64,000 nt of DNA, from assembly GCA_005776395.1 (NCBI GenBank), contig SXPJ01000019.1, positions 848 to 64,847 on the forward strand, in the 5' to 3' direction. Under the pieces are notes generated by a model that saw nothing but the letters and a program-made list of their open reading frames with translations, was not told where the DNA came from and did no database searches. The position numbers were made by a program, and so were the translations under genes. Source of the DNA: Bdellovibrionales bacterium. Its GTDB lineage: Bacteria; Bdellovibrionota; FAC87; UBA2466. Numbering within the stretch: the first letter of the stretch is position 1; the number at the start of each line of letters is the position of its first letter. Positions 530 through 52,508 of this stretch are shown here, piece after piece.

Positions 530-531
530 AT

Positions 532-693
532 TAGCACTAACCAGTTAACCCAGTACCAGATTGCCGAGTTGATTTTGGGTAACAAAGTGAGATACGCCGA
601 CAACCGTGTACTATTGGTACTCGTAGGAGGCACAACAAATCTTTGTAACAAAAGCACCCGCACAGCGGGTGAGGGGTTAAGTGGTTAGTGCTA
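532..693. repeat. Copy A of a 161-162 bp repeat bounded by inverted repeats and predicted to be structured (MITE-like or ncRNA-like)
   Basis: Begins TAGCACTAACCAGTTAACCC and ends GGGGTTAAGTGGTTAGTGCTA, which form an inverted repeat. The core GCCGACAACCGTGTACT(A/C)TTGGTACTCGTAGGAGGC is shared with the copies at 46349-46509 and 52251-52411. All three copies have the same orientation. Confidence 0.85.
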
Positions 694-1041
694 ATTTAAG
701 CCATTTTGAGAATATCAACCAGAACAGCCTACTCATAGCCGTGATCAGTTGAGATGCCATCGGCTAATACGCCAATTTTGATTCAAACCAATAACGCACT
801 ACTCAAAAACCACAGTAGTACTCATTGTACTTCAAGGACTGCGAAGGAGGAGAACAAGAGGACAAAAAAATATGCCCAGTAGACAATGGCATCTTCAACT
901 GGCCCCTACTGTCAAATACTAACAGTAAATTCACCTTGTTGAGGGGTTGAATCCCTTTCAAGAACCAGGTATGTAGAAACTATACTCAGAGGACAACCAA
1001 TTCGGTTTGGCCTTGTGTAAGCTCATTTTTGAAAGGTTTAA

Positions 1042-2521: not shown

Positions 2522-2560
2522 AAAAAAAGGCCCTACACTCTTAAAGAGCACAGGACCTTT
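2522..2560 (-). terminator. Rho-independent terminator of the rplI operon
   Basis: The minus strand reads AAAGGTCCTGTGCTC-tttaa-GAGTGTAGGGCCTTTTTTT. This is a stem (with G-U pairs) followed by a T7 run, about 25 nt after the rplI stop. Confidence 0.6.
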
Positions 2561-2584
2561 GTAAGCTTTTTAAATTCTAGAAAC

Positions 2585-3028
2585 CTACTCTTTTACAACC
2601 CACACTTTAGTATTTGCTACAACCTCTTCAAACACTCTAATTGGCACAGTATAAACTCCAAGTGCCTTGATGGGCTCAGTAAGTAAAATATCTCGTTTAT
2701 CAATAGTGAAACCTTCATGACTAAAGGCTTTTTCGATATCTTGAGTTGTTACAGAGCCAAATAACTTATCATTCTCTCCGACTTTTTTAGCGATAGAGCA
2801 AGAAATTTTCTCAAGCTTAGCTTTCACTGTTTCTGCTTCTTTAAGTCGCTTTGCACGTTTGTTTTCCATTAACCTTTTTTCATGCTCAAACTCTTTTAGG
2901 TTATTTCCAGTTGCTGGAATAGCCAGGTTTCTGGGAAGTAAATAGTTTCGTGCATATCCAGGGGCTACATTGACGATCGTACCAGCTGACCCGAGATTGC
3001 TCATATCCTCTCTTAAAATAACTTTCAT
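2585..3028 (-). CDS. rplI: 50S ribosomal protein L9
   Basis: MKVILREDMSNLGSAGTIVNVAPGYARNYLLPRNLA is the canonical L9 N-terminus. I start at the internal ATG at 3028 (147 aa) rather than the 188-aa ORF in the track. Confidence 0.9.
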   Translation of the reverse strand: MKVILREDMSNLGSAGTIVNVAPGYARNYLLPRNLAIPATGNNLKEFEHEKRLMENKRAKRLKEAETVKAKLEKISCSIAKKVGENDKLFGSVTTQDIEKAFSHEGFTIDKRDILLTEPIKALGVYTVPIRVFEEVVANTKVWVVKE

Positions 3029-3957
3029 GTTTGTTCCTCCAAATAATTGGGAAGGATCTGTGGTGAGATCCCTCGTCTTTTTCTTAAAATCCACGGACTC
3101 ATGATGCCCATACCCACCAAGGCATAAAAGCCCAACAAAACAGCCACACAATAAATGAAGGTTCGGACACTATGTCTGACCCCTCTTTGTGCGAGCAAAA
3201 TCGATAAGCAAATAGAGCCCTGAATGAATATAAAACCACTCAAAACTCTAAAAACTCCCCCTACCAAATACTGGTAGCGTGAAGTTACAACCAAAGTTAA
3301 TGCAAATGAAATAATGAAACAAAGGCTTAACCATCGCGGAACCCTGAATGCTTTAAGGGAAACTGCCGAATATGGGCTTTTCTCTTCTTTGACCCACCCA
3401 AAATGGGCTGCAGCTCCAACAGCTATCCAAATAGATAACAAGGAGGCCAATAAATAGAGAAAGGGGCCCTCATAAAGAATCAGATCTTTAATTACAGCTA
3501 TATTCATAGCCCCATCTAAAGCATGCGTAGCTTTAAGCTTTTCAATTAACTCTGCTACCCAACGCCCCCAGAAATCTTGGACTCTGATATTTTCTGTAAT
3601 AGATCCCCAAATTAAGCACCCAGCCGCCGCAACTAGAGCTACCGCTAAAGATTGGGAAAGTAACTGGAAAGGCTTAACCTCTTTCTGCAAACTATCTGCA
3701 ACAAAGAGGCTCAAAACAAATCCAATCACAACTTGAGCCAATGACACTTCTAAGAATAGAAGCGCTAAAATAGCTCCCCCCAATCCAGAAACCTTTGACC
3801 ATGGATTAGTAAATCGACAGTGGGACAAAACCATAGTCATGGGTGCAAACACCCATGTAGCTATGCCCACAGAAACCAAAAACATCTGTGAAATCAGGGC
3901 AAAAATGTCCACCGATTTCACTTCAACAGGGTCTTGTTTGTCGTTTACTACTCGCAT
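3025..3957 (-). CDS. polytopic membrane protein, DUF2232/YybS-like
   Basis: 310 aa with multiple hydrophobic helices. It sits between rpsR and rplI, as yybS does in Bacillus, and overlaps the rplI start by 4 nt. The family assignment rests on context and size only. Confidence 0.5.
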   Translation of the reverse strand: MRVVNDKQDPVEVKSVDIFALISQMFLVSVGIATWVFAPMTMVLSHCRFTNPWSKVSGLGGAILALLFLEVSLAQVVIGFVLSLFVADSLQKEVKPFQLLSQSLAVALVAAAGCLIWGSITENIRVQDFWGRWVAELIEKLKATHALDGAMNIAVIKDLILYEGPFLYLLASLLSIWIAVGAAAHFGWVKEEKSPYSAVSLKAFRVPRWLSLCFIISFALTLVVTSRYQYLVGGVFRVLSGFIFIQGSICLSILLAQRGVRHSVRTFIYCVAVLLGFYALVGMGIMSPWILRKRRGISPQILPNYLEEQT

Positions 3958-3964
3958 CTCAACT

Positions 3965-4288
3965 CTAGTTTTGTGCTGAAGTATAAAGAATAAACGCTAA
4001 GTGCCTAGAGCGTTTAATCGCTGTTGTTAATTCTCGTTGATGAGCTGCACATAGCCCAGAAATTCTTCGTGGCACAATTTTAGCTCTTTCAGTGATGAAT
4101 GAACTTAATGTAGGCTTATCTTTATAGTCGATAACAAAGCCAGGTTCTGTGCAAAAACGACAACCTTTTCGCTTTTGAAATCCCCGTCTTTCGCCACCAC
4201 GGTCACCAAAGTCTGATCGGTCTCCTCGATCTCCTCGATCTCCTCGATCGTATCCACGATCAGAATTTTTGTTTTCGAATCTTTTCAT
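3965..4288 (-). CDS. rpsR: 30S ribosomal protein S18 with an Arg/Asp/Gly-rich N-terminal extension
   Basis: The C-terminal part, CRFCTE...IDYKD...L..FITERAKIVPRRISGLCAAHQRELTTAIKRSRHLA, is a classic S18 core. A GGAGG RBS lies 6 nt upstream of the ATG. Confidence 0.9.
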   Translation of the reverse strand: MKRFENKNSDRGYDRGDRGDRGDRSDFGDRGGERRGFQKRKGCRFCTEPGFVIDYKDKPTLSSFITERAKIVPRRISGLCAAHQRELTTAIKRSRHLAFILYTSAQN

Positions 4289-4290
4289 TT

Positions 4291-4587
4291 TTATCCTCCA
4301 AAATTTTCTAAAATAACTTTAATTTCTTCGACTCTATTGCCAAATTTGCTGGTGTAAGCCCTGTGATATAACCGACCTTCAATGGTCACGTTCATTCCAA
4401 TTTTTAGTTTTCCTCTTAAGTCCTCTGCTAAGCTTTCAGAAACCACTACTTGGTAATATCCTATTGAAGATTTTGAGTAAGCTTCCTGTGCTACCGCTAA
4501 CATGAACTCTAATAAGGCTAAACCAGAGGGGCTATACTTCAGCTGTCCAACGCGACTAATCTTTCCTGCTAGGTGAACCTTGTTCAA
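4291..4587 (-). CDS. priB: PriB-like / tail-less SSB-fold protein (98 aa)
   Basis: Located between rpsF and rpsR. NKVHLAGKISRVGQLKYSPSGLALLEFMLAV...VVVSESLAEDL..LKIGMNVTIEGRL parallels E. coli PriB (NRLVLSGTVCR..LRKVSPSGIPHCQFVLEH...VIVSGHENQAI...ITVGSRITVQGFI). It has no acidic C-terminal SSB tip. The start codon is TTG. Confidence 0.6.
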   Translation of the reverse strand: MNKVHLAGKISRVGQLKYSPSGLALLEFMLAVAQEAYSKSSIGYYQVVVSESLAEDLRGKLKIGMNVTIEGRLYHRAYTSKFGNRVEEIKVILENFGG

Positions 4588-4626
4588 TTTAACCTACGTA
4601 AAGAATAGTTATCATTGAAAAACAGC

Positions 4627-5031
4627 TTATTGCATTCTCTCTCGTTTTTTCTGCTCTTTAAACTCACGGTTTTTCCTTTGTTCCTCTTCTGCCATCGCAA
4701 TTTGTTGTTTTACTTTGGCAAAATCATACTCAGGACCCTGAGCCACCGTCAGAAAACGAATGACATCATCAGAGATTCTAAAATGACGTTCGATCTCTTC
4801 AACAACTCCAGCTTTACCTGTGTAAACAATAGTTGAATAACGGCCAGAACGTTCATCTTTAATCTCGTAAGCCATTTCTTTAATTCCAGAATCTTCTCGG
4901 TGTTTCAGAGCACCTTGAAACTTAGAAATAACTGCATCAATTTTTTGATGAATATTTTGAGCATCAGCATCCACAAGGCCAGGTCTCAAAATATAGACGG
5001 TTTCATAGGTATAAGAACTAGGATATGACAT
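4627..5031 (-). CDS. rpsF: 30S ribosomal protein S6
   Basis: YETVYILRPGL....I..KI..VI....G.....D.G.KEMAYEI is the S6 signature. I chose the internal ATG at 5031, preceded by GAGGAG 5 nt upstream, giving 134 aa. Confidence 0.9.
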   Translation of the reverse strand: MSYPSSYTYETVYILRPGLVDADAQNIHQKIDAVISKFQGALKHREDSGIKEMAYEIKDERSGRYSTIVYTGKAGVVEEIERHFRISDDVIRFLTVAQGPEYDFAKVKQQIAMAEEEQRKNREFKEQKKRERMQ

Positions 5032-5136
5032 TTTACTCCTCTCGGTCAGTGGCTCACAATGAACCCCAGGCCCCAAAGACAACTTTAGAGCAAGGATGAC
5101 ACAACTGGGCTAAGAAGTATCAGGGTTGGAAAGGGT

Positions 5137-5913
5137 TTACAACTCAAAATCCAGAAAAGACGGACTTTCAGGCGTGTGCAGGGGCTCGCCAAGAATTTTG
5201 GAACTCGGATGGCTTAAACACCTATTGATAGCCGATGTTAAGCGTTCCCAAGGGCAAATTACATCCCTAAATTGACTTAAATTAACCTCAAAAAATGCAG
5301 CTTGAGTCCCAAAAAACTGCCTTAAGTCAGCCGAACTAAGCTGTTTTTGCTCAAACTTTTCTACAAGATTGTGCAAGGAAGAGAGGGTTCCGACTCGTAT
5401 CAATTTTTTCCGAACAAAATGGAATAATAAGGGAAAAGAGGTCTCAAATCCCCGGATCCACAGAACACTTAATTCAAAATTAGCCAATTGGCTTCCGAGC
5501 TGATTTGCAACGGCTCGGAGATCATGAACCCCTTTTAAAAATTCCGGTGGAGAAAACCTGATATTACGATTCTGGGTGTCTTCTCTAAAAAAGAATGAGT
5601 ACGGGTACGGAATTATTTGGTCAAAAAGACAAAATCTGGAATGGCCGATCTCAACATCCTCCACCAAACTGGAATGGCTAACCCAAATCTTGGCTAATTG
5701 GGTTTCTAAATGGGATTGCGATGAATCGGGAAATAAGGGGTCCAGGATCTGAGTCTTAGCTCCCTCCTCATCCCAATTTTGAATTAAAACTTTCTGTTGC
5801 AACACCTCTTCAACTAATTGGAAAGAGGCCTTATCTAATCCCAAAAGCTGCAAAAGAACGAGCTTATCCCTCTCCTCTAAAATAGGGGTGAAATATTTTG
5901 AAAGCTTAGCCAC
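5137..5913 (-). CDS. hypothetical protein (258 aa)
   Basis: Intact ORF that overlaps the upstream gene by 8 nt, suggesting an operon. No motifs recognised. Confidence 0.4.
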   Translation of the reverse strand: MAKLSKYFTPILEERDKLVLLQLLGLDKASFQLVEEVLQQKVLIQNWDEEGAKTQILDPLFPDSSQSHLETQLAKIWVSHSSLVEDVEIGHSRFCLFDQIIPYPYSFFFREDTQNRNIRFSPPEFLKGVHDLRAVANQLGSQLANFELSVLWIRGFETSFPLLFHFVRKKLIRVGTLSSLHNLVEKFEQKQLSSADLRQFFGTQAAFFEVNLSQFRDVICPWERLTSAINRCLSHPSSKILGEPLHTPESPSFLDFEL

Positions 5914-7999: not shown

Positions 8000-8040
8000 A
8001 AAATTGAAAATGGGAAAAGGTTCGGCACATCGTAATAATT

Positions 8041-8307
8041 TTATTTAAAAAGTTTTCGTCTAGAGATCATTTGACTAGGAACACGTTTTCTGTCGCTCCG
8101 ACTTTCGCTTATATTTCCAAGCCCTTTCTCAACTTCAAACAGAGAGTTCAGCGCTGGATCTACAGAAGCTTCTATGGTGAGTTGTGGAGCTTTTACGGTT
8201 CGATATGAAACATTAGTATTATGGTCATTATTCATCATGAAATAGGCGGTAACCAATGCCCCCATGAAAACTGAGATACTATAAATATACTGAAGCCTAT
8301 TTCTCAT
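8041..8307 (-). CDS. small membrane-anchored hypothetical protein (88 aa)
   Basis: ORF with one N-terminal hydrophobic helix (YIYSISVFMGALVTAYFMM). There is no other support. Confidence 0.3.
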   Translation of the reverse strand: MRNRLQYIYSISVFMGALVTAYFMMNNDHNTNVSYRTVKAPQLTIEASVDPALNSLFEVEKGLGNISESRSDRKRVPSQMISRRKLFK

Positions 8308-45568: not shown

Positions 45569-46306
45569 TCAATGAAACTTAGGGCGATAATCCTGATACC
45601 TAGTTTTTAGAAAAAATCCGCCTAACCACAATAGGGCGCTCACTAAAATAAATGGCCAAATAGGCGTTTGAATATCCCCCATAATAAATCTAAAATAAAT
45701 ATAAACTAGCCAGGTATTCCAACTCATAAATCCAAGAAACCGTCCGAATGCATAAACATGGGTTCCCCAATCAAGATCTGCCACCTTTTGAGGCTCTATG
45801 CCCGGTGTAAATTCGGTGGGTTCAAGGGGCTGCTCGCCTACTATCTGACCCGCCTTAATATTGAGATCTCTTAAGATATCGCTATTAACCCCGATAGCTT
45901 TATATTCGAGCCAAAAGATTTTAATATTGTAATAAATAGTAAAACAGCCCCAAAGACCGTGAATCCAAGACAACCACACATAAGAGGAGTTCGAAACGGC
46001 CCCTCCTAAAGTGGTTAAGATCAATAAATATAAAATAGCGTATAAGGCTGGCGGAAAAACATCTCTCTTAAAGGCTTTGGTTTTCTTAACATACTCTTGA
46101 TTGAGACTTAAATCCTCCACAAGTAAACGGGTATCTTTTCCCGAACCTGTAAAAATAGCAAAAACCAAACAGTGTAAAGAGGCTGCTAAAATAGAGGTTC
46201 CAAGCCCCCAAAGCATGTGGCCAGAAACACCCATTAAACCTAAGGCCACACTTACCCCAAAAAGAACGGTGTTAACTATCGCGCAAATACCAAAAAATAG
46301 AGCCAT
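45569..46306 (-). CDS. polytopic membrane hypothetical protein (245 aa)
   Basis: Intact ORF with about 6 hydrophobic helices. No motif recognised. Confidence 0.45.
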   Translation of the reverse strand: MALFFGICAIVNTVLFGVSVALGLMGVSGHMLWGLGTSILAASLHCLVFAIFTGSGKDTRLLVEDLSLNQEYVKKTKAFKRDVFPPALYAILYLLILTTLGGAVSNSSYVWLSWIHGLWGCFTIYYNIKIFWLEYKAIGVNSDILRDLNIKAGQIVGEQPLEPTEFTPGIEPQKVADLDWGTHVYAFGRFLGFMSWNTWLVYIYFRFIMGDIQTPIWPFILVSALLWLGGFFLKTRYQDYRPKFH

Positions 46307-46348
46307 AATGCGGTGGTTCTAACTGAAACCTTGAGGGCACGCAAGATA

Positions 46349-46509
46349 TAGCACGAATCAGTTAACCCCGTACCAAATCGGTGAGTTGATTTTAGATAGC
46401 AAAGCGAGATGCGCCGACAACCGTGTACTCTTGATACTCGTAGGAGGCGCAACAAAGCTTTGCTACAAAAGCAACCGCCCAGCGGGTGCGAGGTTACTGA
46501 TTAATGCTA
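46349..46509. repeat. Copy B of the 161-162 bp structured repeat
   Basis: TAGCACGAATCAGTTAACCCC ... GAGGTTACTGATTAATGCTA. The core is roughly 85-90% identical to copies A and C by eye. Confidence 0.85.
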
Positions 46510-46558
46510 TATAACCCAACTGTTGCTTATAGAGCCTATAGGGTCTATAAAACAGGCC

Positions 46559-47410
46559 ATGCTAGATTCAAAACTTCCCCAAAGGTTATCCCCAGAAAAA
46601 CTAAAGGAGATCTCAAGGCAATGCCGAATCGATATCCTTGAAATGCTTGAAAAAGCAGGAAGTGGTCACCCCGGGGGATCACTCTCTGCCATCGATATCA
46701 TCATGACCCTATTTTTTCATGAGATGAAAAGCAATCCTAGTGAGCCTATGTGGGAAGATCGTGATCGCTTCATATTATCTAAAGGACACGGAGTTCCCGC
46801 TCTTTATTCTGTTCTAGCGGAACGGGAAATTATTCCAAAGGCTGAGTTATTAACCCTACGTAAAATTAATTCTCGAATTCAAGGACACCCAGATCGAGTT
46901 TTGCTTCCTGTAGTAGAAGCCTCCACAGGAAGCTTAGGACAAGGAATCTCAATAGCTCAAGGAATCGCGTTAGGGCTTAAGCTGCAAAAGAAAGATTCAA
47001 AAGTATTTTGCTTAATGGGAGATGGCGAAACGCAAGAGGGACAAGTTTGGGAAACAGCCCTTTCAGCCCCTAAGTACAAATTAAATAATCTTGTTGTGTT
47101 TATCGATAATAATAATGGCCAAATTGATGGTCACGTAGAGGATGTGATGGATTTACGCCCATTAGCGGATAAATGGCGTGCGTTTCGCTGGGCCGTACAA
47201 GAGATCGATGGTCATGACTTCTCACAAATAATCGGAGCCTTGGAAACAGCACGAAAAGAGACTGAAAGACCTACACTTATTGTGGCAAAAACGGTCAAGG
47301 GTAAAGGGATTTCATTTATGGAAAATTCCATTGCGTGGCATGGGGTTTCACCTAATAAAGAACAACTAGATCGGGCCTTATTAGATCTTAATGGAGGATT
47401 TAAATCATGA
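46559..47410 (+). CDS. transketolase, N-terminal (thiamine diphosphate-binding) subunit
   Basis: GSGHPGGSLSAIDI, SKGHG.PALY and GDGE.QEGQVWE are transketolase N-terminal motifs. The start is uncertain: ATG at 46559 or TTG at 46523. Confidence 0.85.
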   Translation: MLDSKLPQRLSPEKLKEISRQCRIDILEMLEKAGSGHPGGSLSAIDIIMTLFFHEMKSNPSEPMWEDRDRFILSKGHGVPALYSVLAEREIIPKAELLTLRKINSRIQGHPDRVLLPVVEASTGSLGQGISIAQGIALGLKLQKKDSKVFCLMGDGETQEGQVWETALSAPKYKLNNLVVFIDNNNGQIDGHVEDVMDLRPLADKWRAFRWAVQEIDGHDFSQIIGALETARKETERPTLIVAKTVKGKGISFMENSIAWHGVSPNKEQLDRALLDLNGGFKS

Positions 47411-52230: not shown

Positions 52231-52250
52231 AGTTTAGGCTCCTAGAGTTA

Positions 52251-52411
52251 TAGCACTCACCAGTTAACCCAGTACCAGATCGGTGAGTTGATTTTGAATA
52301 GCAAAGCGAGACGCGCCGACAACCGTGTACTCTTGGTACTTGTAGGAGGCGCAACAAAGCTTTCCAACAAAAGCACCCCCCATCTGATACGGAGTTAACT
52401 GGTTAGTGCTA
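52251..52411. repeat. Copy C of the 161-162 bp structured repeat
   Basis: TAGCACTCACCAGTTAACCC ... GGAGTTAACTGGTTAGTGCTA. It starts 20 nt upstream of the glpK start codon. Confidence 0.85.
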
Positions 52412-52508
52412 TAAGTACGGATTATAACTAAACTCTTCTTGAAACAAAATCGGGTTCACCCTTTTAAGTACAGATTTTTTAAAAAATTTACGCTATAGGT
52501 ATCCCCCT

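What the first reader, a model, noticed from the sequence alone, without database searches (positions are those of the whole stretch)
532..693. Three-copy 161-162 bp structured repeat with compensatory substitutions: MITE or unassigned RNA
The copies lie at 532-693, 46349-46509 and 52251-52411, all in the same orientation. They share the core ...GAGTTGATTTTG..AGCAAAGCGAGA.GCGCCGACAACCGTGTACTCTTGGTACTCGTAGGAGGCGCAACAAAGCTTTGC.ACAAAAGCA...

The ends form a ~20-bp closing helix (TAGCACTAACCAGTTAACCC / GGGGTTAAGTGGTTAGTGCTA).

The differences between copies are partly compensatory:
- Copy B has AATCAG on the left arm paired with CTGATT on the right, where A and C have AACCAG paired with GTGGTT or CTGGTT.
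- An internal helix reads ACAAAG/CTTTGT in copy A but GCAAAGC/GCTTTGC in copy B.

Nested hairpins are also visible: GTAC-tcttg-GTAC, TGCGCC...GGCGCA, and CACCCGC-aca-GCGGGTG. An AGGAGG sits in the apical region without a nearby start codon.

The element starts TA-GCAC and ends GTGC-TA. That is compatible with a TA target duplication of an IS630/Tc1-type MITE, but no matching transposase is in the window. I do not recognise the element as any Rfam family.
Basis: seen in the sequence. Interest (0 to 1): 0.7.

Follow-up and report, generated by a model that had tools for sequence, protein, structure and literature searches.

The report
New orphan MITE family, TA duplication
The three 161-162 bp repeats are copies of a small non-coding "jumping" DNA element (a MITE) that inserted at TA sites in an uncultured Bdellovibrionales-like bacterium; this is an ordinary kind of element, though its sequence family has not been described.

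Summary
Three same-strand copies (532-693, 46349-46509, 52251-52411; 84-87% identical) fold into a rod-like hairpin closed by ~26-bp terminal inverted repeats.

Five further distinct copies were found in metagenome contigs with the same GC content. All eight insertions are bracketed by a 2-bp repeat: TA/TA in six, AT/AT in one, AA/TA in one.

The key result is that two of the window sites are empty in syntenic relatives. These relatives share 68-76% amino-acid identity in the flanking gene and lack exactly TAGCAC...GTGCTA plus one TA. The element is therefore a mobile insertion: a MITE of the Stowaway / IS630-Tc1-mariner type.

No autonomous parent IS was found, so it is an orphan, like the Correia elements. 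It matches no Rfam family, no GTDB representative genome, no plasmid and no viral contig.

The covariation between the arms is real: 7 pairs, 0 of 500 shuffles reach that. It does not favour either strand. Both strands fold equally well, A·C mismatches are about as common as G·U pairs, and there is no promoter or terminator. It therefore does not support a dedicated RNA gene.

Verdict: a new member of a known kind, of low to moderate interest.

The parts
532..693 (+). MITE copy A (162 bp). It lies 2 bp after the stop codon (527-529) of the ORF ending at 529. Terminal inverted repeats are roughly 532-559 and 666-693.
   Evidence: inverted repeat I2
530..531 (.). Left flanking dinucleotide of copy A (AT). 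It is repeated at 694-695. The reconstructed target GCTTAA-AT-TTAAGC is a perfect 14-bp palindrome.
   Evidence: The empty-site comparison for this site was inconclusive.
694..695 (.). Right flanking dinucleotide of copy A (AT)
46349..46509 (+). MITE copy B (161 bp). It sits in the divergent intergenic region between the 245-aa membrane ORF (start codon at 46306, - strand) and the transketolase N-terminal subunit (ATG at 46559, + strand).
46347..46348 (.). Left TA target-site duplication of copy B. The relative L088 has CGCAAGT-TA-TAACCC, uninterrupted.
   Evidence: read by eye from the two sequences
46510..46511 (.). Right TA target-site duplication of copy B
52251..52411 (+). MITE copy C (161 bp). 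It lies 20 nt upstream of the glpK start codon (52230, - strand), beyond the ribosome-binding site AGGAGCC. glpK transcription must therefore start in or run through the element.
52249..52250 (.). Left TA target-site duplication of copy C
   Evidence: L087, L088 and L089 have a 115-116 bp spacer against 278 bp here. The gap equals the element plus one TA exactly.
52412..52413 (.). Right TA target-site duplication of copy C

Best explanation
[quoted passage not shown] It is 161-162 bp long and has ~26-bp terminal inverted repeats beginning TAGCAC. The interior is itself an imperfect palindrome, so either strand can fold into a 60-bp rod.

It most likely moves by cut-and-paste. A DDE transposase of the IS630/Tc1-mariner type, encoded elsewhere in the genome or since lost, would bind both inverted repeats, make a 2-bp staggered cut at a TA in AT-rich and often palindromic DNA, and leave a TA duplication.

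**Shown here:**
- The element is multicopy.
- It has terminal inverted repeats and a 2-bp flanking duplication.
- It is precisely absent from two orthologous sites in relatives.
- It has no coding capacity.

**Inferred:**
- The transposase family.
- Mobilisation in trans.
- The arm-to-arm compensatory changes arise at the DNA level. Candidate routes are selection on master copies for matched ends, or quasipalindrome template-switch or hairpin repair that homogenises the arms. Neither route requires selection on a functional RNA.

**Transcription.** Several copies must be transcribed passively as part of neighbouring mRNAs. The glpK leader in the window is one case; the copy inside an operon in L061 is another. 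There the rod probably acts as an incidental double-stranded RNA hairpin, as described for Correia/nemis elements.
For: **Copy number.** Three copies lie in the window. Five more distinct copies, 84-94% identical, lie in SXGT01/SXGU01 contigs with GC content (41-42%) matching the window.

**Flanking duplication.** The bracketing dinucleotides are TA/TA in 6 of 8 copies, AT/AT in one and AA/TA in one.

**Empty sites.**
- The glpK-DUF2400 spacer is 278 bp in the window and 115-116 bp in the syntenic relatives L087, L088 and L089. The alignment gap equals TAGCAC...GTGCTA plus one TA.
- Site B reads CGCAAGT-TA-TAACCC in L088, against CGCAAGA-TA[element]TA-TAACCC in the window.
- No copy was found in 79 kb of DNA from relatives.

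**Fixation.** The same filled site C appears in two further contigs from separate assemblies (L085, L086).

**Not coding.**
- Variable sites fall 14/18/21 across the three codon positions.
- Neither of the two open frames has a Pfam hit.
- Only one predicted ORF among 5.8 billion proteins matches.

**Not strand-specific.**
- The mean difference in folding energy between + and - strands is -3.9 +/- 7.5 kcal/mol.
- There are 22 G·U cells and 15 A·C cells.
- No promoter-like site is found; the scan called two terminator-like sites in the C region, one inside copy C on the minus strand, against 0.3 expected.

**Match to the definition.** Published criteria for bacterial MITEs are: under 200 bp, terminal inverted repeats, terminal 5'-TA-3', a target-site duplication and no protein (PMC2229807). 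All are met.
Against: - No autonomous IS with these termini was found in any source searched: the window, the roughly 56 kb of other contigs from this organism, the GTDB representative genomes, plasmids and viral contigs. The transposase family is inferred from the TA duplication alone. IS5-family elements of the IS427 group can also duplicate 2 bp (from my own knowledge).
- Two of the eight flanks are not TA/TA.
- The relatives used for the empty sites are different species (68-76% amino-acid identity), so precise deletion in their lineages cannot be formally excluded. It would have had to occur twice and with exact boundaries.
- Arm covariation exceeds the shuffle control. A simple model of a transposase binding double-stranded DNA does not by itself predict this.
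Confidence: 0.88

Rival explanations
1. The element is a family of functional structured non-coding RNA genes, or a cis-regulatory RNA, whose rod-like fold is kept by selection. Under this view the repeated copies are paralogous RNA loci rather than transposon insertions.
For: - Folding is strong, with z-scores of -5.6 to -8.3.
- Seven pairs carry changes on both sides, against 2.5 +/- 1.2 in shuffles; 0 of 500 shuffles reach this.
- The centre of the element looks more conserved among the three window copies (3 variable sites in 37 columns, against 35 in the other 125; Fisher p=0.014).
Against: - The copies are absent from orthologous sites in relatives, with a 2-bp duplication at the boundaries.
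- The minus strand folds as well as the plus strand.
- A·C mismatches (15 cells) are about as frequent as G·U pairs (22 cells).
- No sigma-70-type promoter is found; the one terminator-like hairpin the scan called inside copy C (minus strand) is not matched in the copy B region.
- Orientation relative to neighbouring genes is mixed.
- No Rfam family matches.
- The central conservation is not significant once the post-hoc choice of window is allowed for (p=0.16).
- One copy interrupts a ParE toxin ORF.
Confidence: 0.05
2. The element is a MITE that the host has since put to use. When co-transcribed, its long hairpin would be an RNase III target or an mRNA stabiliser or attenuator that tunes neighbouring genes. 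Its junctions (TA+TAGCAC and GTGCTA+TA) would rebuild TATA-like -10 boxes. This is what has been proposed for Correia/nemis and ERIC elements.
For: - Copies sit 2-49 nt from gene starts or stops.
- Copy C lies between any possible glpK promoter and its ribosome-binding site.
- The L061 copy fills a 171-bp gap between two co-oriented ORFs.
- Filled site C is identical in the two other contigs recovered from separate assemblies (L085, L086).
- There is a literature precedent for RNase III processing of nemis hairpins (PMC2229807).
Against: - There are no expression data.
- No promoter-like site was called at the junctions.
- Mismatches that are private to single copies accumulate across the whole rod, as expected for neutral decay.
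- Only 8 copies are known.
Confidence: 0.2
3. The element is a hairpin element mobilised as single-stranded DNA by an HUH or tyrosine transposase, like REP/RAYT elements or IS200/IS605-derived palindrome-associated elements. The arm covariation would then reflect an essential DNA hairpin.
For: - The whole element is a palindrome with compensated arm changes. Two of these are shared by the most similar pairs of copies (L038/L041 and B/L061), so they probably arose in active master copies.
- No DDE-type parent was found.
Against: - IS200/IS605 and REP elements have no terminal inverted repeats reaching the very ends and make no target duplication (from my own knowledge of these families). Here the inverted repeats run to the last base, and a 2-bp duplication is seen at 8 of 8 sites and confirmed by 2 empty sites.
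- At 161 bp the element is far larger than a REP.
- No RAYT or TnpA gene is adjacent.
Confidence: 0.04

Closest known systems
Correia repeat-enclosed elements (CREE / nemis) of Neisseria
   Same: - Size of about 100-160 bp with ~26-bp terminal inverted repeats.
- Termini beginning TATAG once the duplicated TA is included.
- TA duplication.
- Mostly intergenic and often co-transcribed, forming long hairpins.
- No cognate transposase known (PMC2229807, PMC5039591).
   Different: - There is no significant sequence similarity to the four published Correia inverted-repeat variants beyond TATAG (717-920 of 2000 shuffles score as well; best partial match 44 of 2000).
- The host lineage is different.
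- Only about 8 copies are seen here, not hundreds.
- The interior here is palindromic right up to the apex.
- No IHF site or promoter has been demonstrated.
RUP (repeat unit of pneumococcus), mobilised by IS630-Spn1
   Same: - A short non-coding element with terminal inverted repeats.
- Inserts at a TA dinucleotide.
- Thought to be moved in trans by an IS630-family transposase (PMC2229807).
   Different: - RUP is 107 bp and its inverted repeats match a known IS630 member. Here no IS with matching ends was found.
- The sequences are unrelated.
Eukaryotic Stowaway MITEs (Tc1/mariner-derived)
   Same: - TA target duplication.
- Terminal inverted repeats.
- Size under 300 bp.
- Potential to fold into a hairpin.
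- Preference for sites near genes (from my own knowledge, and Feschotte references cited in PMC2229807).
   Different: The host here is a bacterium, copy number is low, and no link to any Tc1/mariner transposase has been shown.
ERIC / YPAL palindromic repeats of enterobacteria
   Same: - Imperfect palindromes of 127-168 bp.
- Transcribed together with neighbouring genes.
- Filled and empty sites can be compared between species (PMC2229807).
   Different: - YPAL lacks terminal TA and makes duplications of variable length, 3-26 bp. Here the duplication is a fixed 2 bp.
- There is no sequence similarity; nothing was found in plasmids or in the GTDB genome scan.

Membership tests
Bacterial MITE (generic definition, PMC2229807) | Small size (under about 200-300 bp) with no protein-coding capacity | tested here: met
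   - The element is 161-162 bp.
- The two open frames have no start-codon context.
- There are no Pfam hits.
- Variable sites show no third-codon-position bias: 14/18/21.
Bacterial MITE (generic definition, PMC2229807) | Terminal inverted repeats that reach the ends of the element | tested here: met
   Helix 1, columns 1-28 with 135-162, is 93% paired across 8 copies. Inverted repeats I1 and I2 show the same.
Bacterial MITE (generic definition, PMC2229807) | Target-site duplication flanking each copy | tested here: met
   A 2-bp direct repeat is present at 7 of 8 sites: TA at six and AT at one. The eighth is AA/TA. The duplication length is confirmed by two empty sites.
Bacterial MITE (generic definition, PMC2229807) | Multiple dispersed copies, and filled versus empty sites between genomes | tested here: met
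   There are 8 distinct loci. Sites B and C are empty in relatives L087-L089. No copy was found in 79 kb of DNA from relatives.
IS630 / Tc1-mariner-derived (Stowaway-like) MITE | Strict TA target, with TA duplicated | tested here: inconclusive
   Six of 8 flanks are TA/TA. Copy A is AT/AT and L059 is AA/TA. Both empty sites have TA at the insertion point.
IS630 / Tc1-mariner-derived (Stowaway-like) MITE | Inverted repeats shared with an autonomous element that encodes a DDE transposase | tested here: inconclusive
   No other inverted-repeat pair was found in:
- the window;
- other contigs of the same organism;
- GTDB representative genomes, which gave 8 single chance hits;
- viral contigs;
- plasmids.

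The full genome of the host was not available to search.
Correia / CREE (Neisseria) | 26-bp Correia inverted repeat (TATAGTGGATTAA...) | tested here: not met
   Local alignment to the four published variants is no better than alignment to shuffled sequence, apart from the shared TATAG.
Any Rfam RNA family | Covariance-model match at the gathering score | tested here: not met
   There were 0 matches across the window at gathering threshold. At E<=10 around copy A, nothing overlapped the element.
REP/RAYT or IS200/IS605-derived palindromic elements | No target duplication; short sub-terminal hairpins; associated HUH transposase | tested here: not met
   A 2-bp duplication is present. The element is a 160-bp rod with inverted repeats running to the ends. 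No adjacent transposase ORF is present.

The most novel reading that the evidence does not exclude
The rod is not just a relic of how the element arose. Instead, arm complementarity would be actively maintained: compensated changes are shared by the most similar copy pairs, while uncompensated changes are mostly private to single copies.

Two reasons are possible:
- The element transposes through, or is recognised as, a folded single-stranded or cruciform intermediate by an enzyme not yet described.
- The hairpin, with its apical AGGAGG/CCUCCU, has been recruited as a double-stranded RNA regulatory module in mRNAs such as the glpK leader.
Probability: 0.1. Interest if true: 0.55.

Novelty: new member of a known kind. 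Interest (0 to 1): 0.25.

Why it matters
- It adds a previously undescribed MITE family in a poorly studied, uncultured lineage. Relatives are labelled only Proteobacteria, Deltaproteobacteria or Bdellovibrionales MAGs.
- Clean filled and empty sites fix the element's boundaries and the length of its duplication.
- It is a worked example that arm-to-arm "compensatory" substitutions in a palindromic transposon should not be read as evidence for a functional RNA.
- In practice, such elements cause assembly breaks and spurious small ORFs (P0001). They can rewire 5' leaders (glpK) or split genes (the ParE toxin in L038).

Beyond that it is an ordinary mobile element.

Tried and rejected
**Searches for further copies or a parent IS**
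- The core 22-mer in GTDB representative genomes gave 0 hits.
- The inverted-repeat pattern in GTDB gave only 8 single, unpaired chance hits in unrelated taxa.
- blastn against plasmids found nothing.
- Two viral-contig scans gave nothing real.
- A protein search with the element's open frame, intended to catch spurious ORFs or a parent transposase terminus, returned only P0001, which lies on the L038 contig.

**Metagenome scan.** The 18-mer gave 76 loci. Only 6 were real, representing 5 distinct sites. The rest were chance matches. One group of soil contigs showed a weak extended resemblance, which I judged to be driven by the search seed.

**Hypotheses tested and not supported**
- Rfam at gathering threshold and at E<=10: no match.
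- Homology to Correia inverted repeats: not significant.
- Coding hypothesis: rejected.
- Special conservation of the central hairpin: Fisher p=0.014, but p=0.16 after correcting for the post-hoc choice of window.
- Strand preference of the fold: none.

**Tests that gave no answer**
- The empty-site test for copy A was inconclusive. Relatives diverge right after the upstream gene, and the window carries about 230 bp of further unmatched sequence.
- Two attempts to extend the source contig failed because the ORF calls did not match recorded proteins.
- A literature search for the assembly accessions found nothing.
- A literature search for MITEs in Bdellovibrio found nothing relevant.

Full report
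**1. Checking the observation**

Aligned with their flanks, similarity starts and stops sharply at TAGCAC...GTGCTA. The repeat finder reports them as the only long direct-repeat family in the 64-kb window. The 20-nt terminus occurs five times with 3 or fewer mismatches, always at an element end, against 0.00 expected by chance.

Each copy folds far better than its shuffles:
- Copy A: -64.1 kcal/mol, z = -5.6.
- Copy B: -69.3 kcal/mol, z = -8.3.
- Copy C: -60.9 kcal/mol, z = -6.7.

The quoted compensatory changes (AATCAG/CTGATT in copy B; ACAAAG/CTTTGT in copy A) are present.

**2. More copies, and how widely the element occurs**

An 18-nt core pattern found 76 metagenome loci. BLAST and nhmmer showed that only six are real: L038, L041 (the same site as L049), L053, L059 and L061. 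These are full-length copies, 84-94% identical to the window copies. They lie in different genomic contexts, on contigs with GC content (41-42%) matching the window (41%). Eight distinct insertions are therefore known.

Nothing real was found in any other source:
- 185,579 GTDB representative genomes, searched with either the core or the inverted-repeat pattern.
- PLSDB plasmids.
- IMG/VR viral contigs.
- Rfam.
- 5.8 billion predicted proteins, searched with the element's open frame. The only hit was one spurious 55-aa ORF on the L038 contig.

The family appears confined to one uncultured organism. Its closest relatives carry only coarse NCBI labels: Proteobacteria, Deltaproteobacteria or Bdellovibrionales bacterium MAGs. 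The window also encodes a TIGR02147-family protein.

**3. The decisive test: empty sites**

The DUF2400 protein beside copy C has relatives at 76% and 68% identity whose contigs keep the same gene order. In these relatives the glpK-DUF2400 spacer is 115-116 bp, against 278 bp in the window.

The alignment shows conserved sequence on both sides and a single clean gap covering TAGCAC...GTGCTA plus one TA:
- Window: CTCCTAGAGT-TA-[element]-TA-AGTACGG
- L088: CTCCTAAAGATAAGCTCGG
- L087: CTCCTAAAGTTGAGTTTGG

The reconstructed empty site has exactly the same length as in both relatives.

L088 also covers site B. It reads CGCAAGT-TA-TAACCCAAG, where the window has CGCAAGA-TA-[element]-TA-TAACCCAAC. 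MAFFT misplaced this gap, so I read the correspondence directly from the two sequences.

Two independent sites therefore show that the element is an insertion with a 2-bp duplication.

Across all eight sites the bracketing dinucleotides are TA/TA six times, AT/AT once (copy A) and AA/TA once (L059). No copy occurs in 79 kb of DNA from relatives. Site C is filled in two further contigs from separate assemblies (L085, L086), both 100% identical to the window over thousands of bases.

The empty-site test for copy A was inconclusive because the relatives diverge immediately after the upstream gene.

**4. Structure, covariation and the RNA question**

RNAalifold on the eight copies gives one rod of 60 pairs, 93.7% of cells paired. 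Seven pairs carry changes on both sides (9 cells), against 2.5 +/- 1.2 in column shuffles; 0 of 500 shuffles reach this. Sliding the partner by 1-3 columns removes the signal. The covariation is therefore real. Five of the seven pairs lie in the terminal inverted repeats.

The structure does not favour either strand:
- The minus strand of copy A folds at -58.0 kcal/mol (z = -5.5).
- Over eight copies the + minus - difference is -3.9 +/- 7.5 kcal/mol.
- A·C cells, which would be G·U on the other strand, number 15, against 22 G·U cells.

No promoter-like site is found in or beside copies B and C; two terminator-like hairpins were called in the copy C region (one inside copy C on the minus strand), and none around copy B. 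Orientation relative to neighbouring genes is mixed.

The two compensated variants shared by more than one copy are shared by the most similar copy pairs: 6/157 in L038 and L041, and 10/153 in B and L061. Most uncompensated mismatches are private to a single copy. This fits changes fixed in active master copies followed by neutral decay after insertion.

DNA-level explanations are enough to account for this (inference from established knowledge). These are matched ends favoured for transposition, or template-switch or hairpin repair in a quasipalindrome.

The apparently better-conserved centre (3 variable columns of 37 among the window copies) does not survive correction for choosing that window after the fact (p = 0.16). 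The element is not coding: variable sites fall 14/18/21 across codon positions, and there are no Pfam hits.

**5. What it is and how it works**

All the features used to define bacterial MITEs are met: under 200 bp, terminal inverted repeats, terminal TA, a target duplication and no protein (PMC2229807). A TA-targeted 2-bp duplication points to an IS630/Tc1-mariner-type DDE transposase acting in trans (inference).

The window contains no IS and no other pair of these inverted repeats. Neither do the other contigs held for this organism. The parent is unknown, as it is for the Correia elements.

Insertions sit in AT-rich DNA that is often palindromic. The reconstructed target of copy A is the perfect palindrome GCTTAAATTTAAGC, and that of L041 is TATCTAGATA. 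They lie very close to gene ends:
- Copy A: 2 bp after a stop codon.
- Copy C: 20 nt upstream of the glpK start, beyond its ribosome-binding site.
- L061: between two co-oriented ORFs, with the element's first TAG serving as the upstream stop codon.
- L038: in the overlap between the antitoxin stop and the toxin start of an RHH/ParE module.

Several copies must therefore be transcribed within mRNAs. By analogy with nemis/Correia elements, the rod would be a double-stranded RNA hairpin that may be processed. This is analogy only and was not tested.

**6. Comparison with known elements, and novelty**

The closest analogues are Correia/CREE, RUP, ERIC/YPAL and eukaryotic Stowaway elements. Sequence membership in the Correia family was tested against the four published inverted-repeat variants (PMC5039591, PMC9778887) and failed.

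The element is a new sequence family of a well-known kind. Its interest is low to moderate. The main value is the clean demonstration of mobility, and the caution it provides against reading palindrome-arm covariation as evidence for a functional RNA.

Noticed in passing
L038:7791-8431 (element at 8021-8182): This MITE copy sits exactly in the stop/start overlap of an RHH antitoxin and a ParE toxin (PF05016, E = 2.4e-13).
- The antitoxin keeps its C-terminus. Its stop codon is now the element's first TAG.
- The toxin's first four codons (MAKY) now read into the element, giving the 55-aa ORF P0001.
- The rest of the toxin can restart only at an ATG created by the inverted-repeat variant AATGCTA.
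   Followed up: partly
window:33500-45550: A block of about 12 kb is absent from the syntenic relative L088. It holds three large minus-strand ORFs (728, 874 and 1153 aa, the last with a subtilisin/mycosin-like domain), a 418-aa ORF, a 279-aa ORF and a 395-aa ORF. In L088 the rhomboid gene is followed directly by the 245-aa membrane gene. This looks like a lineage-specific island or indel.
   Followed up: no
window:694-930 and window:1898-2425: About 230 bp of non-coding DNA lies just downstream of copy A, and a 175-aa ORF lies between the TIGR02147 gene and rplI. Neither has a counterpart in the relatives L094-L097, where the spacers are 68-106 bp. The origin of both is unknown.
   Followed up: no
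window:943-975: A block GGGGTTGAATCCC...AAGAACCAGGTATG is conserved upstream of the TIGR02147 gene in the window and in all four relatives. It reads like a TTGAAT-N17-TATG(A/T)A promoter.
   Followed up: no
L048:2199-2292, and also L037, L073, L013, L021: These soil-metagenome contigs share the 18-mer CGCCGACAACCGTGTACT. It is followed by a GTACT hairpin and a TAGGGG Shine-Dalgarno sequence, just upstream of a zinc-ribbon ORF. This loosely resembles the element's apex (nhmmer E = 8e-5, but the match includes the search seed). I judged it a chance match selected by the seed.
   Followed up: partly
window:524-701: Copy A is flanked by AT/AT rather than TA/TA. Its reconstructed target, GCTTAA-AT-TTAAGC, is a perfect 14-bp palindrome placed right after a stop codon. 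It may be a former terminator stem.
   Followed up: partly
L061:3926-4087: The element fills almost the whole 171-bp gap between two co-oriented ORFs (2540-3928 and 4099-5145). Its first three bases, TAG, serve as the stop codon of the upstream ORF. Without the insertion, that reading frame would continue past this point.
   Followed up: no
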